Shown one piece after another: positions 2,499-23,724 of a DNA stretch of 32,000 bases. The notes under the pieces were generated by a model that made no database searches, had not been told where the DNA came from, and saw only the letters and a program-made list of their open reading frames with translations. The stretch is from contig NZ_CP047960.1 in assembly GCF_014280195.1 (NCBI RefSeq), forward strand, positions 210,001-242,000. Direction: 5' to 3'. Positions within the stretch are counted from its first letter, which is position 1. Each line of letters begins with the position of its first letter. This DNA is from Synechococcus sp. A15-24 (lineage in GTDB: Bacteria; Cyanobacteriota; Cyanobacteriia; PCC-6307; Cyanobiaceae). The position numbers and the translations under genes are program-made.

Positions 2499-2720
2499 AT
2501 GACTTAAGAGCAGAAGCCTTCAAATGCTCAATCGCGACAAAAATTTCATCGAAGGTGTGGCGCGAGCAAAGCATGCTGGGTTATAAATTAGTAATCAAAT
2601 TTTTAGCATGAGGTTAAATCCTGCGTTACGGCGACTTTTTGTGTGATTTCGGAGACAAATTTGTTGGCGACCTCTCTGTGTGACGCTTTCTTCTTTGGTA
2701 TTTATCTGGATTGTTTGATT

Positions 2721-2836
2721 TGGGACGAATTGACTTTTGATTCGGGACGCATTTTATTTTTCATGCGTCCCGTTTGCCTTGAATATGTCCCGTGGGTTTG
2801 TCCTAGTTCTTTCACTTGTCCCGTGTATTTGTCCCG
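2721..2836. promoter_or_regulatory. array of GTCCCG / CGGGAC motifs with a central perfect 10-bp inverted repeat (candidate operator or iteron array)
   Basis: GTCCCG occurs on the plus strand at 2767, 2787, 2818 and 2831. CGGGAC occurs at 2743 and the variant TGGGAC at 2721. Degenerate GTCCT (2800) and GTCTG (2852) are also present. The inverted repeat is CGGGACGCAT (2743-2752), a 10-nt loop, then ATGCGTCCCG (2763-2772). The array lies in the divergent spacer between the 210-aa and 684-aa genes. Confidence 0.5.
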
Positions 2837-11871: not shown

Positions 11872-13689
11872 ATGCCCTTGCGAAGCCAGACCTGGAGAGA
11901 TCTGCGGCGCCTGCTGAAGGAGTTGCCACCCAGCCGGCTTCGTTTTCTTGTGGTGGTGCTGGTGGCCTCTTTCCTGCAGGGCCTGATGGACATCCTGCTT
12001 GTGGGTCTGTTGGCGCGGCTGGTGGGCTTGATGGCCGGCGTGAAACTGGCGGATCAGATCCCCGGCATCCACGTCTTTGGTGGGGGCATGCTCGATCAGG
12101 CCGGCTGGTTGCTGGGGTTGTTGGTCGTGGCGTTCTGGCTCACCTCCGGCCTGCGCTTTGGTGTGGCATTTCTGCAGAGCATGCTCAGCGCCGAGATCTG
12201 GAATGACCTGGTCAATAAGGTCTACCGGAATCTGATGCTGCAGGACTATGAGTTCTTCACGCATCACCGCACCGCCAATCTTTCCGAGAGCTTCAACCGG
12301 ATCCTGAACAAGGTTTCCACGACCGTGGTCAGTCCAATGATCACGATTGCGGGCAATGCCCTTTCGGTGCTGGTGCTGCTGAGCGGTGTGGTGCTGGTTC
12401 TGGGCACCCCGGCTCTGCTGATGTTCGGTTTGATGCTTGGTTCCTATGCCTTGGCATCGAAGCTGATCATTCCCTATCTGCGCTTCGCCACCAAGCAGCG
12501 GGTGCGCTACTCCAGACGGATCCATTTGCTGCTGATGGAATCACTGCGATCGATGCGAGATGTGCAGCTCTATTCCGCCGAGCGATTCTTCATCAATCGC
12601 TTCGCCAGCGATGGCGTTGTGGCCAAGCGCTACGACCGGTTGACCAAATTGCTGCCGGATGTGCCTCGCTATGTGATCGAGCCAGCTGGAATCACGATTC
12701 TGTTTCTCGTGGGCCTCGGACCCTCCGTTCTCAGTGGGGATGCCGTCAGCGTGCGGGAGGCCATTCCCACCCTGGCAGCGGTGCTCGGTACCTTGCTGCG
12801 CATCTCCGGACCCCTGCAGAACACCTTCCGCAATATCAACAAACTTCGCGGCGGTTTGCCTGAAATTCAGGATGCACTGGAGTTGCTGGACCTTCGCCCC
12901 AAGCGCCTGAACACCAGCGCACCGGGGGTCCCCACGCCCAGTGGTGTGATGCCACGGCAGTTCATTCAGCTGCGTGATGTGAGCTTCAGCTACTCCGGCA
13001 GCGAGGAATCTGTGCTGTCGAACGTTGATCTCACCATTCCCGTTGGATCACGCATCGCCCTGGTCGGTCGCACGGGCAGCGGCAAAACCACCCTGGCCCA
13101 TCTGCTGCTTGGTCTGTTCCGCCCCAGCAGTGGTGATCTCACCCTGGACGGTCTTCCCCTGAATGAGGAAGAGTTGCCGGCCTGGCAGGGCAACTGCGCC
13201 CTGGTGCCCCAGGACATCCGACTGCTGGATGCCAGCATCCGCGACAACGTCGCCTTCGGCTGTGATCCGGAGGAGATTGAGGACGATCAGGTCTGGGCAG
13301 CACTGGAAGCAGCTCAATTCGAAGATGTCGTCAGCGCTATGCCGTATGGGCTTTTCACCATGATCGGTGAAAACGGGATCAAGCTGTCTGGCGGACAGCG
13401 TCAGCGGTTGTCTCTAGCCCGTGCCTTCTACCGCGATGCCAAGGTGCTGGTGCTGGATGAAGCCACCAGTGCTCTCGATAACAAGACCGAGCACGACGTA
13501 ATGCAGGCCCTGGATCTGGTGGGACGTCGCTGCACCACGATTGTGATCGCCCATCGCCTGTCCACCGTGCGCAAGTGCGATCGCATCTATGAGATCGAAG
13601 ACGGGCGGATCAAAGCGTCTGGTGATTTCGACACCCTCTGCGGCCTGTCGGACAGCTTCCGTGAGATGACCCGGTTCGAAACCGCCTGA
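11872..13689 (+). CDS. ABC exporter, fused TMD-NBD half transporter (MsbA/PglK/Wzk-like)
   Basis: An N-terminal domain of about 300 aa contains multiple TM helices. The NBD carries Walker A GRTGSGKTT, the signature LSGGQRQR, Walker B VLVLDEATSALD and the H-loop IAHRL. Confidence 0.9.
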   Translation: MPLRSQTWRDLRRLLKELPPSRLRFLVVVLVASFLQGLMDILLVGLLARLVGLMAGVKLADQIPGIHVFGGGMLDQAGWLLGLLVVAFWLTSGLRFGVAFLQSMLSAEIWNDLVNKVYRNLMLQDYEFFTHHRTANLSESFNRILNKVSTTVVSPMITIAGNALSVLVLLSGVVLVLGTPALLMFGLMLGSYALASKLIIPYLRFATKQRVRYSRRIHLLLMESLRSMRDVQLYSAERFFINRFASDGVVAKRYDRLTKLLPDVPRYVIEPAGITILFLVGLGPSVLSGDAVSVREAIPTLAAVLGTLLRISGPLQNTFRNINKLRGGLPEIQDALELLDLRPKRLNTSAPGVPTPSGVMPRQFIQLRDVSFSYSGSEESVLSNVDLTIPVGSRIALVGRTGSGKTTLAHLLLGLFRPSSGDLTLDGLPLNEEELPAWQGNCALVPQDIRLLDASIRDNVAFGCDPEEIEDDQVWAALEAAQFEDVVSAMPYGLFTMIGENGIKLSGGQRQRLSLARAFYRDAKVLVLDEATSALDNKTEHDVMQALDLVGRRCTTIVIAHRLSTVRKCDRIYEIEDGRIKASGDFDTLCGLSDSFREMTRFETA

Positions 13690-19813: not shown

Positions 19814-20623
19814 CTATGGGCGTGACTTCATCAGAAAGGTCCTGCTTGAGGTAGTTGTGCAGCACTGGATGCTGGGTCTGTCGTCCTGAAACAACAGTTC
19901 GGCAAGACGTCGCTTGCGTTGGCGGACCGCTGGATCGATGCTGTTCAGGTTGGTGCGGGTCGTCGTGGTTGGGTTGCGTTGGATGGGTGCTGTTGTCGCT
20001 TTGGGTTGTTGCTTTTGACCGTCCGGTAGCTCTGAGATCAGGGCGTTTTGAAGCTCTGTCTGCCGGGTGGTGATGCTGGTGAATGGAATCACCAGACAGG
20101 GAATGTTGAGAGCAGCGCAGCGGTCGATCCAGCCATCGATCAGGTTCTGAATCAATGGCAAGTAGCGCACAGCCAACAGCTCAAACCGCTCGGAAGGATT
20201 GAGATCCTGAAAGTGGGATAAGCCCTCGATGCGGTTGATCAGCTTGGGGTCAATCGGACCGCTACCCCTGTCGCAATGGGCGATCAGGGAGCAGACCAAC
20301 TGTCCCAGCGGACGGATGGGGATGCAGCAAACCGCTGGTTGGTAGCGGCGGGCGATCCGTTTGAGGTTCAGGCGCGTGGGCAGGTAATGGCCGTAGACCA
20401 GTGCCGCCTTAGGAGGTCGCTTTAGGCCGCTGTGAAACCGCCACCGCTCCAAACGACGCACAGCATCGATCTTCAGGCTCTGATGAACATCACCGTCCAT
20501 GGCAGGCCTGTCTAAACCGGGAGGCATTAGGGCTTCCACCAGGGCCGTCAGGGTCTGGCTAGCGGTTTTGGGAGGTGCCGGGATTAGAACCGCCGGCGCT
20601 GTCCAGGGGTGGACGCTCACCAT
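19814..20623 (-). CDS. hypothetical protein, sulfotransferase-like (Sulfotransfer_2-type motifs)
   Basis: LIPAPPKTASQTL resembles a 5'-PSB loop (PKT[AG][ST]). CIPIRPLGQLVCSLIAH resembles the 3'-PB R-x-P-x3-R/Q-x3-S motif. ATG 20623-20621 sits one base upstream of the preceding stop TGA 20619-20617 (ATGgTGA), so the two reading frames overlap by 7 nt. Confidence 0.4.
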   Translation of the reverse strand: MVSVHPWTAPAVLIPAPPKTASQTLTALVEALMPPGLDRPAMDGDVHQSLKIDAVRRLERWRFHSGLKRPPKAALVYGHYLPTRLNLKRIARRYQPAVCCIPIRPLGQLVCSLIAHCDRGSGPIDPKLINRIEGLSHFQDLNPSERFELLAVRYLPLIQNLIDGWIDRCAALNIPCLVIPFTSITTRQTELQNALISELPDGQKQQPKATTAPIQRNPTTTTRTNLNSIDPAVRQRKRRLAELLFQDDRPSIQCCTTTSSRTFLMKSRP

Positions 20624-21805
20624 TTCACCTGCCAGGGCCAGCGATCCGGTAGGCACATGAACTGATCCCCGCCGATGCAGTCCTCAAGTCGCAGGATGCG
20701 GTCGTCGATGAAGGATTCCCCAACGACCGCCAGCGCGGGGAGCAGGGCCCAGGCGCAGCCCTGACGGGCAGTCCAGACCATCAGGGACAGCATCCAGAAC
20801 AAACCGATCGGGTCCAGGCAGCGACTGAGGATGGGTGCCAGGACTCCTGTAGCCATGGATAGCTGGATCAGACCCAGCAGCAGGCTGTAGGCAAACAGCG
20901 TCCGCGCATCGTGATCGGCGGCCATGGCGGCGGGCCTCAGCCGGGCTCGCCAGATGGTCAACGCCACAGCCACCAGAGCGGACAGCTCAAGTCCGAACAC
21001 CGCTTTGCGCAGTCCGTAGGTGTTGAAGTATCTGGCCTCAAACAGTTAGCTGCTCAGCTTCTCAATCAGTGCGGGCTGACTGAGGGCGATGCCGATGCTC
21101 ACCATCACTAGCAGGCTGGCCAGAGTGATGGTTCGCCGGCCTGTGTTCTGTAGCAGCCCTGGACGGGTCAGAACGGGGACCAGGGCCAGGGTCGTTGTGA
21201 TCGGAAGACTGTTATGAGCCAGGGCAGAGCCAGCGACGGCGGCGGCAACCCAGCCCCAACCGATCTGGCACCAGCCGGCGACGCGCAGCAGCAGGGGAGT
21301 GATCAGCACCGTGGCCAGGGCCTGGCGGGTGACACCGTTCTGCAGGAAGTTGCGGAGCAAGGGGGACCACAGCACCAGCAGGGCCCAGAGGCCACCCCAC
21401 TGCGGTCGCTGTGTTGCCCTCGAAAGCATGAGTGGCACCACGGCATACCCAACCGCCACGAGTCCATGCAGGCTCGCCAACCGGTAGGGCAGAGCACTGA
21501 TCAACGGGGCTGCCGCAATCCAGAGCGGTTCATCCAACACATCACGGGGGTCAATCGCCAGGTAACGGCTGAAGCGGGTGATGTCACTGGTGCCCCAGTT
21601 GGCCAGGGTGAAGAACAGCGTGCTGAGTGCCACCAGACCAGCGGCGAGACACCACCAGCGGCGAGACACCACCAGCGGCGACCCAACCACCCCATGCAGG
21701 TCGCCAGCAGCAGTTGCCCGATGGCCAGGGCCAGCATTGCTTCGGGATTTGTGGTGACCTGATCAATCCGGTAAGGCGCCTCGCTGGGGAAGCTCAGCAG
21801 CAGGG

Positions 21806-21809
<4 letters not shown>
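20617..21809 (-). pseudogene. disrupted polytopic membrane protein (about 12-13 TM; Wzy/WaaL-like or GT-C-like), broken by a 17-bp tandem duplication and an in-frame TAA
   Basis: Three track ORFs (21501-21809, 21046-21690, 20617-21000) join into one frame of 392 codons. Removing one 17-bp repeat copy gives 1193-17=1176 nt, which is 3 x 392. Reading through TAA 21043-21045 completes the join. RRWWCLAAG is encoded in both overlapping frames. ATG 21809 overlaps the upstream stop as ATGA. Confidence 0.65.
21638..21681. repeat. 17-bp tandem repeat, 2.6 copies (CCAGCGGCGAGACACCA x2 plus CCAGCGGCGA)
   Basis: Direct reading gives copy 1 at 21638-21654, an identical copy 2 at 21655-21671, and a partial copy at 21672-21681. 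Confidence 0.95.

Positions 21810-23724
<1,915 letters not shown>

What the first reader, a model, noticed from the sequence alone, without database searches (positions are those of the whole stretch)
21638..21681. 17-bp tandem duplication frameshifts a polytopic envelope membrane protein
CCAGCGGCGAGACACCA occurs twice in perfect tandem (21638-21654 and 21655-21671) and is followed by a 10-nt partial copy. Because 17 is not a multiple of 3, the minus-strand gene is split. The upstream frame reads ...CMGWLGRRWWCLAAGGVSPLVWW... and the downstream frame reads (GTG)VGSPLVVSRRWWCLAAGLVALSTLFF.... RRWWCLAAG is therefore encoded twice in different frames. Deleting one copy restores MGWLGRRWWCLAAGLVALS..., and the whole 20617-21809 interval becomes 1176 nt, exactly 392 codons. 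The pre-existing 10-nt repeat at 17-nt spacing would favour slipped-strand duplication and also precise reversion, so this could be a reversible on/off lesion. The gene is the third in an overlap-coupled chain (kdsA, unknown, this gene, sulfotransferase-like), so the frameshift should also impair translation of the last gene. Loss-of-function mutations in cell-surface glycan genes are a well-documented route to phage resistance in marine picocyanobacteria.
Basis: partly seen in the sequence, partly recalled or inferred. Interest (0 to 1): 0.72.

Follow-up and report, generated by a model that had tools for sequence, protein, structure and literature searches.

The report
Duplication-broken, doubly dead envelope gene

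Summary
A perfect 17-bp x 2.6 tandem array lies at 21637-21681, and chance expects about 1e-10 such arrays in the window. It splits a minus-strand gene (20617-21809) that is a single 391-393 aa ORF in close relatives. One-copy relatives already carry the 11-nt direct repeat at 17-nt spacing, which supports an origin by replication slippage.

An in-frame TAA at 21046-21048 replaces a Tyr that all 17 aligned homologues keep, so precise reversion of the duplication would not restore the protein. The same duplication plus TAA occurs in three independent ocean metagenome contigs (99.0-99.4% identical, each with its own SNPs). This excludes an assembly artefact and a culture-acquired mutation.

Two related lineages carry different null lesions: a TGA at codon 260, and a 1-nt deletion in clade III strain YX04-3. 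In A15-24 the next gene in the operon has a 1-nt deletion.

The protein belongs to a narrow picocyanobacterial family with no Pfam match. Its confident AlphaFold model best resembles GT-C glycosyltransferases.

Verdict: a stably inherited, multi-hit pseudogene in a glycan gene cluster. Loss driven by phage is plausible but untested. Interest is modest.

The parts
21637..21681 (.). Perfect tandem array, 17-bp unit x 2.6. On the coding (minus) strand it reads as three copies of the 11-mer TCGCCGCTGGT separated by GGTGTC.
   Evidence: TRF; sequence; chance estimate
21655..21671 (-). The extra 17-bp copy. Either full copy (this one or 21638-21654) can be taken as the insertion. It is absent from all one-copy orthologues.
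   Evidence: DNA alignments
20617..21809 (-). Disrupted gene (pseudogene) for a 391-aa polytopic membrane protein with a GT-C-like fold. Intact in relatives at 391-393 aa.
21501..21809 (-). ORF A: 52 native N-terminal residues (TM1 only) followed by 50 out-of-frame residues and a stop.
   Evidence: helix map of the model
21046..21690 (-). ORF B: 214 aa, GTG start. Annotated in GenBank as hypothetical protein QNJ27955.1. Residues 19-214 correspond to native residues 53-248.
21046..21048 (-). In-frame TAA nonsense codon replacing a Tyr (TAC) conserved in all 17 aligned homologues.
20617..21000 (-). ORF C: 127 aa, the native C-terminal part in the same frame as ORF B. Annotated as QNJ27954.1. 100% identical in protein to the intact allele on L074.
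21806..22849 (-). Upstream operon gene, 347 aa, unknown function, TTG start overlapping the kdsA stop. Intact and 95% identical to the L074 copy.
22846..23700 (-). kdsA (3-deoxy-8-phosphooctulonate synthase), the first gene of the operon.
19814..20623 (-). Downstream operon gene (286 aa in relatives). Its ATG overlaps the stop of the membrane gene (ATGGTGA). In A15-24 a 1-nt deletion between 19866 and 19867 replaces the last ~33 residues with 16 out-of-frame residues.

Best explanation
The minus-strand gene at 20617-21809 of Synechococcus sp. A15-24 (clade III) is a stably inherited pseudogene with at least two hits. It derives from a conserved 391-aa polytopic membrane protein whose predicted fold resembles GT-C glycosyltransferases. 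Such enzymes use lipid-linked sugars at the outer face of the inner membrane.

In the ancestral allele the sequence TCGCCGCTGGT-GGTGTC-TCGCCGCTGGT held an 11-nt direct repeat with a 17-nt period. Replication slippage between the two 11-mers copied 17 nt a second time. This shifted the frame after codon 52, at the start of TM2. Separately, Tyr249 (TAC) mutated to TAA. With both lesions no full-length protein can be made, and loss of the duplication alone would not repair the gene, so it is not a working on/off switch.

The doubly broken allele is not an artefact and did not arise in culture: it circulates in natural ocean populations. Ribosomes now stop about 880 nt (ORF A) or about 420 nt (ORF B) before the start of the overlap-coupled downstream gene. 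That gene also carries a frameshift in A15-24, so the distal half of the kdsA-led operon is probably non-functional.

Shown: the duplication, the TAA, their absence from intact orthologues, their presence in three metagenome contigs, the pre-existing repeat, and the downstream 1-nt deletion. Inferred: slippage as the mechanism, loss of function, polarity on the downstream gene, and the enzymatic role.
For: - Array and its improbability.
- Three ORFs and the in-frame TAA.
- Sixty-seven homologues were found. The closest full-length ones are single ORFs of 392-393 aa at 73-94% identity.
- The stop aligns with Tyr in 17/17 homologues.
- Intact one-copy alleles occur on L069, L070, L074, L075 and L078. 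L078 and L079 have exactly the precursor sequence GGTTGGGTCGCCGCTGGTGGTGTCTCGCCGCTGGTCTGG.
- Identical duplication plus TAA occurs in L071 (ERZ27267435), L076 (ERZ9422971) and L077 (ERZ23497074). They are 99.0-99.4% identical to A15-24, with 6-8 private or shared SNPs each.
- The source is A15-24, and the fragments are annotated as separate hypothetical proteins. The genome was assembled from Illumina data.
- Intact allele pairs give dN/dS of 0.11-0.17. Within the duplication clade the values are 0.19-2.25, based on 13 SNPs (7 nonsynonymous). These include Q151E in the invariant FLQNG motif and L228P.
- The neighbourhood is collinear with L074 at 96.2% over 7.9 kb, with only 17 gap positions.
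- The downstream gene has a 1-nt deletion.
- The AF2 model has pLDDT 91.7 and pTM 0.91. The best PDB folds are AftA, PglB, STT3, AglB and ArnT.
Against: - I had no read-level data for A15-24.
- The order of the two lesions is unresolved. The only contig with TAA and one copy (L072) has a 5' end from another haplotype and adapter sequence at its start, so it may be a recombinant or a chimeric assembly.
- dN/dS in the duplication clade rests on 13 SNPs and is not clearly 1.
- ORF C is 100% identical in protein to an intact allele. This could reflect recent recombination or residual constraint.
- There are no expression or phenotype data.
- The GT-C assignment is from fold only (Foldseek E 1.7e-3, TM 0.50-0.53), with no sequence-family support.
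- The 1-nt deletion in the downstream gene is seen only in the A15-24 assembly.
Confidence: 0.85

Rival explanations
1. Adaptive loss. The null alleles were positively selected, for example because the glycan made by this operon is a cyanophage receptor or grazer cue. They are then kept as a polymorphism alongside intact alleles. This concerns why the pseudogene exists and is compatible with the best explanation of what it is.
For: Three lineages of close relatives carry different inactivating lesions in the same gene. These are duplication plus TAA in the A15-24 lineage, GGA>TGA at codon 260 on L079, and a 1-nt deletion at about codon 289 in clade III strain YX04-3 (L080 and L081). Intact alleles are under purifying selection, with dN/dS of 0.11-0.17. 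The gene lies in a cluster of glycosyltransferases, an ABC exporter and kdsA. Loss-of-function mutations in cell-surface genes are the common route to cyanophage resistance in Prochlorococcus and were seen in coevolving marine Synechococcus (background in PMC5520035).
Against: There are no phage, adsorption or fitness data. Recurrent loss is equally expected under relaxed selection for a dispensable accessory pathway. L079 is a single contig. L080 and L081 are probably the same culture. The region does not differ in G+C from its surroundings.
Confidence: 0.3
2. Reversible phase-variation switch. The 17-bp unit is gained and lost by slippage and toggles expression of the envelope protein and the downstream gene.
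For: Tandem repeats flanked by microhomology are intrinsically prone to gain and loss. The repeat lies near the 5' end of a surface-glycan gene, as in classical contingency loci.
Against: The TAA at codon 249 is linked to the duplication in all four sequences, so excision cannot restore the ORF. Copy number is identical (2.6) in four genotypes diverged by up to 1%. One-copy alleles occur only on other haplotypes. The one-copy contig L072 has GGC and an extra TGG at the site, so it is not a precise revertant. The downstream gene is also frameshifted.
Confidence: 0.03
3. Assembly or sequencing artefact in the A15-24 genome.
For: Short tandem repeats can be mis-assembled, and I had no reads to check.
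Against: The same junction and the same TAA were assembled independently in three metagenome projects with different assemblers, each on a slightly different haplotype. The 45-nt array is shorter than an Illumina read.
Confidence: 0.01
4. The split gene is still functional. ORF B and/or ORF C are translated and act as a truncated or multi-subunit enzyme.
For: GenBank annotates both as proteins. ORF C is 100% identical in protein to the intact L074 allele.
Against: ORF B lacks TM1 and the conserved N-terminal motif (P8, P12 and R14 are invariant), and it stops inside the conserved region at an invariant Tyr. No diverged orthologue has this split architecture, and all 14 or so full-length family clusters are single ORFs. 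Nonsynonymous changes at invariant positions accumulate in the duplication clade.
Confidence: 0.05

Closest known systems
Frameshift pseudogenes made by short tandem duplication between direct repeats (replication slippage)
   Same: A perfect head-to-tail duplication whose length is not a multiple of 3. Microhomology (an 11-nt repeat) is already present in the ancestral one-copy allele. A further disabling mutation is also present.
   Different: Nothing essential differs. The unusual aspect is that the identical allele can be followed in ocean metagenomes.
Phase-variable contingency loci in surface-glycan genes (simple-sequence-repeat switches of Haemophilus, Neisseria and Campylobacter; from general knowledge)
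   Same: A repeat inside the 5' part of a cell-envelope glycan gene changes the reading frame.
   Different: Only 2.6 copies of a 17-nt unit rather than a long run of 1-7-nt units. Copy number is invariant across four diverged genotypes. A linked nonsense codon makes switching pointless.
GT-C fold membrane glycosyltransferases (AftA 8if8, PglB 6gxc and 5ogl, STT3, AglB, ArnT 5ezm)
   Same: A polytopic all-helical protein. These are the best structural matches to the confident model. The family has an invariant acidic loop motif (WGTSD) after an early TM helix.
   Different: No sequence-family membership. There is no large soluble periplasmic domain, since the protein is only about 392 aa. TM-score is about 0.5. 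The donor and acceptor are unknown.
EpsG / Wzy-type polysaccharide polymerases (Pfam PF14897)
   Same: Similar size, polytopic topology and a glycan-cluster setting. Three of 57 family members give weak EpsG hits, with best E 2.8e-4.
   Different: 54 of 57 members, including the closest relative of the window protein, give no hit. The solved O-antigen ligase WaaL matched poorly (probability 0.10).
Phage-resistance null mutations in cell-surface genes of marine picocyanobacteria (Avrani et al. 2011 and Marston et al. 2012, as summarised in PMC5520035)
   Same: Loss-of-function lesions in genes of unknown function within envelope glycan regions, with population-level coexistence of alleles.
   Different: Those mutations were selected in the laboratory under phage challenge. 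Here no phage link has been tested, and the region shows no compositional island signature.

Membership tests
Tandem-duplication frameshift pseudogene | A perfect tandem duplicate that is absent from intact orthologues | tested here: met
   One copy in L069, L070, L074, L075, L078, L079, L080 and L081. Two full copies (a 2.6-copy array) only in the A15-24 lineage.
Tandem-duplication frameshift pseudogene | The insertion length is not a multiple of 3 and the frame is broken relative to full-length homologues | tested here: met
   17 nt. The frame changes after codon 52. Homologues are single ORFs of 391-393 aa.
Tandem-duplication frameshift pseudogene | Pre-existing microhomology in the ancestral allele that can template slippage | tested here: met
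   The 11-nt TCGCCGCTGGT occurs twice at 17-nt spacing in all close one-copy alleles. The exact precursor is present in L078 and L079.
Tandem-duplication frameshift pseudogene | Signs of decay: further disabling lesions or relaxed constraint | tested here: met
   TAA at the conserved Tyr249. dN/dS is raised but rests on only 13 SNPs. Q151E and L228P changes occur in members of the clade.
Phase-variable contingency locus | Repeat copy number varies among very close genomes on the same haplotype | tested here: not met
   All four duplication-lineage sequences have the identical 45-nt array. One-copy alleles lie on other haplotypes.
Phase-variable contingency locus | One repeat state gives an intact ORF | tested here: not met
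   Removing one copy still leaves the in-frame TAA at codon 249.
Phase-variable contingency locus | Measured high-frequency switching | not testable with these tools
   Needs amplicon sequencing of clonal cultures.
GT-C fold glycosyltransferase | Polytopic membrane protein with 8 or more TM helices | tested here: met
   The AF2 model of P0001 has pLDDT 91.7 and about 11-12 long helices.
GT-C fold glycosyltransferase | Structural similarity to solved GT-C enzymes | tested here: inconclusive
GT-C fold glycosyltransferase | Conserved acidic residue in the first extracytoplasmic loop | tested here: inconclusive
   Invariant D71 (WGTSD) and E89 lie in the loop after TM2. The sidedness of this loop was not determined, and the residue-level structural alignment was not available.
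GT-C fold glycosyltransferase | Sequence membership in a curated GT-C family | tested here: not met
   No Pfam or NCBIfam hit. No PDB sequence hit. A profile search of 1.84 billion representatives found only 67 proteins, all from the same narrow family.
GT-C fold glycosyltransferase | Use of a lipid-phosphate-linked sugar donor | not testable with these tools
   Requires biochemistry.
EpsG / Wzy-like polymerase | Match to PF14897 above the family threshold | tested here: not met
   Only 3 of 57 members hit, with best E 2.8e-4. P0001 has no hit.
   No Pfam or NCBIfam hit. No PDB sequence hit for the profile. hhalign against the window's own Sulfotransfer_3 protein gave probability 0.2%. The AF2 model was unusable at pLDDT 33.8, so the fold remains untested.

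The most novel reading that the evidence does not exclude
Null and intact alleles of this GT-C-like envelope gene coexist in wild clade III Synechococcus as a balanced polymorphism. It would be maintained by phage or grazer pressure through negative frequency-dependent selection on a Kdo-linked surface glycan. The 17-bp junction and the TAA would then serve as natural barcodes for tracking a resistance allele across ocean metagenomes.
Probability: 0.2. Interest if true: 0.6.

Novelty: new member of a known kind. Interest (0 to 1): 0.3.

Why it matters
This corrects the public annotation of A15-24: QNJ27954.1 and QNJ27955.1 are fragments of one dead gene, not two hypothetical proteins. It gives a clean example of slippage-mediated duplication in which the precursor allele is still present in nature. 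It assigns a probable fold, GT-C-like, to a narrow picocyanobacterial membrane protein family that has no annotation. It also shows that null alleles of one envelope-glycan gene have arisen at least three times in close relatives and that one of them persists in the open ocean. If the losses prove to be phage-driven, the 17-bp junction would be a convenient marker for following a resistance allele in metagenomes. As it stands, this is an ordinary pseudogene, documented in some detail.

Tried and rejected
- The look-up of encoding contigs with ORF B returned 'not on record', although the exact-sequence look-up found it in NCBI.
- The genome-contig scan did not contain A15-24. The best marine hits were only 72-73% identical.
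- The single metagenome contigs pattern scan found only two contigs, both one-copy and intact. It added no duplication carriers.
- L073 looked like another multi-frameshift allele. It is a 4x long-read contig in which kdsA and a GT4 gene are also split, so its indels were dismissed as sequencing errors.
- L072 was first taken as proof that the TAA came before the duplication. I rejected this as decisive. Its 5' 260 nt belong to the L069-type haplotype, its 3' part shares a derived SNP with the duplication-carrier L077, and the contig starts with Nextera adapter.
- The AF2 model of the downstream 286-aa protein failed (pLDDT 33.8), because only 11 homologues exist.
- hhalign of that protein against the window's own sulfotransferase gave nothing.
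- Permissive NCBIfam and Pfam scans of all 57 family members gave only scattered noise apart from three weak EpsG hits.
- No paralogue of the membrane gene exists in the window.
- Programmed ribosomal frameshifting was considered and rejected, because the TAA would still terminate the restored frame.

Full report
**1. The observation**

Tandem Repeats Finder reports one array at 21637-21681 with period 17, 2.6 copies, 100% matches and score 90. This is the highest score in the window. The unit CCAGCGGCGAGACACCA occupies 21638-21654 and 21655-21671 and is followed by CCAGCGGCGA.

The array is a run of 28 consecutive self-matches at lag 17. From the base composition, about 1e-10 such runs are expected in 32 kb over lags 4-60. 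Twenty shuffles gave longest qualifying runs of only 7-11.

On the minus strand the upstream frame reads ...CMGWLGRRWWCLAAGGVSPLVWW... (ORF A, 21501-21809). The downstream frame reads MVGSPLVVSRRWWCLAAGLVALS... (ORF B, 21046-21690).

**2.

Deleting one copy does give 1176 nt. However, the restored frame reads ...IEKLSS*LFEARYFNTYG..., with an in-frame TAA at 21046-21048, codon 249. ORF B and ORF C (20617-21000) are in the same frame and are separated by this stop. The interval is therefore three fragments, and the gene has two independent inactivating lesions.

**3. Orthologues**

The closest full-length ones are single ORFs of 392-393 aa at 94, 90, 80 ... 73% identity, all from metagenomes and all unnamed. 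In an alignment of 17 of them the TAA column is Tyr in every sequence, and the one-copy reading MGW(W)LGRRWW(C/W)LAAGLVALS is the norm.

Exact look-up identifies the window as Synechococcus sp. A15-24. ORF B is deposited as hypothetical protein QNJ27955.1 and ORF C as QNJ27954.1. A15-24 is a clade III strain whose genome was assembled from Illumina libraries (Doré et al. 2020, PMC7522525).

**4. DNA-level comparison**

I fetched the contigs that encode the relatives and aligned the DNA (alignments).

- Intact, one copy, TAC: L069 (95.5% identical), L074 (96.5%), L075 (91.4%), L070 (88%) and L078 (86.6% overall).
- L078 and L079 carry exactly GGTTGGGTCGCCGCTGGTGGTGTCTCGCCGCTGGTCTGG at the site. 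This is the immediate precursor. It contains the 11-mer TCGCCGCTGGT twice, 17 nt apart.
- The duplicated allele contains that 11-mer three times.

This is the expected product of replication slippage between the two 11-mers. The mechanism itself is inferred, while the precursor and the product are both observed.

**5. The broken allele exists in nature**

Three metagenome contigs carry the identical 45-nt array and the identical TAA:

- L071: ERZ27267435, a MEGAHIT-style contig name.
- L076: ERZ9422971, a SPAdes-style contig name, coverage 2.3.
- L077: ERZ23497074, named LARK21-1_SAMN16861414_METAG.

They are 99.36%, 99.04% and 99.16% identical to A15-24 and differ from it and from each other at 6-8 sites. 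This excludes an assembly artefact in A15-24. It also excludes a mutation acquired in culture.

It further shows that the two-copy state has stayed unchanged while the lineage diverged by up to about 1%. Sites 244 and 358 show all four allele combinations once the outgroup alleles are counted, so this population recombines.

A pattern scan of the JGI metagenome collection found only two more contigs, both one-copy and intact.

**6. Switch or pseudogene?**

The reversible-switch reading fails on three counts:

- The TAA is linked to the duplication in all four carriers, so precise excision cannot restore the protein.
- Copy number does not vary on this haplotype.
- The one contig with one copy plus TAA (L072) is not a revertant. 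At the site it has GGC and an extra TGG, like the L069 haplotype. Its first ~260 nt belong to that haplotype. Its 3' part shares the derived Q151E change with L077, and it begins with Nextera adapter. It is either a natural recombinant or a chimeric assembly. For the same reason it cannot settle which lesion came first.

Constraint looks relaxed in the broken lineage. Intact allele pairs give NG86 dN/dS of 0.11-0.17. Pairs within the duplication clade give 0.19-2.25. Of the 13 polymorphic sites, 7 are nonsynonymous, including Q151E in the invariant FLQNG motif and L228P. The numbers are small, so this is only suggestive.

**7. More decay in and around the gene**

The neighbourhood is collinear with the 11.7-kb contig L074 at 96.2% over 7.9 kb, with 17 gap positions in all. 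The upstream 347-aa gene is intact.

The downstream gene is different. By homology its true start is the ATG at 20623, overlapping the membrane gene's stop as ATGGTGA. It has lost one base between 19866 and 19867: AGCATCC-AGTGCTG, against AGCATCCAAGTGCTG or AGCATCCAGGCGCTG in four relatives. The last ~33 residues of the 286-aa protein are replaced by 16 out-of-frame residues. This lesion is seen only in the A15-24 assembly.

Two other lineages carry different null lesions in the membrane gene:

- L079 (JGI 3300066019, 96.9% identical) has one copy and an intact Tyr but GGA>TGA at codon 260.
- L081, the genome of clade III strain YX04-3 from the South China Sea (PMC7029141), and the identical L080 have one copy and an intact Tyr. 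They carry a 1-nt deletion (CCCGCC-CCATGG) near codon 289, plus R147H in the invariant LLRNF motif.

L073 also looked broken. It is a 4x long-read contig with other split genes, so I discounted it.

In total, at least three independent inactivations have occurred among close relatives of a gene that is otherwise under purifying selection.

**8. What the gene encodes**

Pfam and NCBIfam give no hit. Neither does a profile search of PDB sequences. A profile search of 1.84 billion cluster representatives finds only 67 proteins, about 14 of them full-length. The family is therefore narrow, and its named members come from Synechococcus, Cyanobium and Vulcanococcus.

An AlphaFold2 model of the closest intact relative, built from a 57-sequence alignment, is confident: pLDDT 91.7, pTM 0.91, about 11-12 long helices. 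Foldseek against the PDB places only GT-C glycosyltransferases at the top:

- AftA 8if8: E 1.7e-3, probability 1.00, TM 0.50-0.53.
- PglB 6gxc and 5ogl.
- Then STT3, AglB, ArnT and ALG3.
- The O-antigen ligase WaaL matches poorly.

Three of the 57 members give weak Pfam EpsG hits, with best E 2.8e-4. The invariant WGTSD and E89 loop after TM2 is a candidate catalytic acidic loop, but I did not establish which side of the membrane it faces.

My reading is a membrane glycosyltransferase or polymerase acting on lipid-linked glycan. The fold is GT-C-like and family membership is not established. The frameshift falls at the start of TM2, so ORF A retains only TM1.

**9. Context**

The operon is kdsA, then the 347-aa unknown gene, then this gene, then the 286-aa-type unknown gene. 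The stop/start overlaps are TTGA, ATGA and ATGGTGA. It converges on a plus-strand block that encodes an ABC exporter, three GT4 enzymes and a GT2-like protein. A Sulfotransfer_3 protein and a GT8-like protein lie beyond uvrD. G+C is uniform at 0.61-0.64.

- No Pfam or NCBIfam hit.
- No PDB sequence hit.
- hhalign probability of 0.2% against the window's own sulfotransferase.
- An unusable model (pLDDT 33.8) from only 11 homologues.

A review abstract states that cyanobacterial LPS lacks Kdo (PMC4515613). A kdsA-led accessory operon may therefore make some other Kdo-containing glycan. This is speculation.

**10. Why it was lost**

Loss-of-function in cell-surface genes is the usual route to cyanophage resistance in Prochlorococcus and was seen in coevolving marine Synechococcus (summarised in PMC5520035). 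The recurrent independent null alleles are compatible with selection for loss. They are equally compatible with relaxed selection on a dispensable accessory pathway. Nothing here discriminates between the two, and I put selected loss at about 0.3.

**11. Verdict**

The reversible-switch and artefact readings are rejected. The locus is a naturally circulating, multi-hit pseudogene of an unannotated GT-C-like envelope enzyme, in an operon whose distal half is decaying. It is a new member of a known kind and of modest interest.

Noticed in passing
window 19866-19867 (minus-strand gene 19814-20623): A 1-nt deletion relative to four relatives frameshifts the last ~33 codons of the downstream operon gene. 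It is a third lesion in the same operon and is seen only in the A15-24 assembly.
   Followed up: partly
L079 (JGI 3300066019), gene codon 260: An independent nonsense mutation, GGA>TGA, on a one-copy allele with intact Tyr that is 96.9% identical to A15-24.
   Followed up: partly
L081 (Synechococcus sp. YX04-3, GCA_003712085.1) and the identical L080 (Logan SRR11524959), gene nt ~865: An independent 1-nt deletion (CCCGCC-CCATGG) splits the gene into 308-aa and 92/102-aa ORFs. R147H is also present in the invariant LLRNF motif. The two assemblies are probably the same culture.
   Followed up: partly
L072 (ERZ27267439), nt 1-55 and gene nt 60-263: The contig begins with Nextera adapter sequence. 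Its 5' part matches the L069 haplotype and its 3' part matches the duplication clade, including the TAA. It is a recombinant or a chimeric assembly.
   Followed up: partly
L072, L076, L077: contig ends at gene nt 836-837: Three contigs from different assemblies end at the same gene position. Just downstream, the alleles become nearly identical. This is probably an assembly-graph break at a haplotype junction.
   Followed up: no
window 20617-21000 versus 21046-21690: ORF C is 100% identical in protein to the intact L074 allele, whereas ORF B is only 95.7% identical. This mosaic pattern suggests recombination within the gene.
   Followed up: no
window about 21682-21690 (minus strand, just 5' of the array): A 3-nt TGG (Trp codon) length polymorphism lies next to the repeat and gives 391-aa versus 392-aa alleles. 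It is a second slippage-prone spot in the GGTGGTGG run.
   Followed up: no
L030 (single-cell genome AG-670-A05), nt 1471-1979: Only residues 1-169 of the protein are matched, with a frame change near the N-terminus, although the contig continues for 2.2 kb. This may be another truncated copy or a chimera from genome amplification.
   Followed up: no
window 22846-23700 and the operon: A kdsA-led accessory operon occurs in a group whose LPS is reported to lack Kdo (PMC4515613 abstract). The product may be a non-LPS Kdo-containing glycan.
   Followed up: no
window 2714-2760 and 11997-12039: Two other imperfect two-copy tandem repeats (periods 22 and 21, 78-80% matches) were reported by TRF.
   Followed up: no
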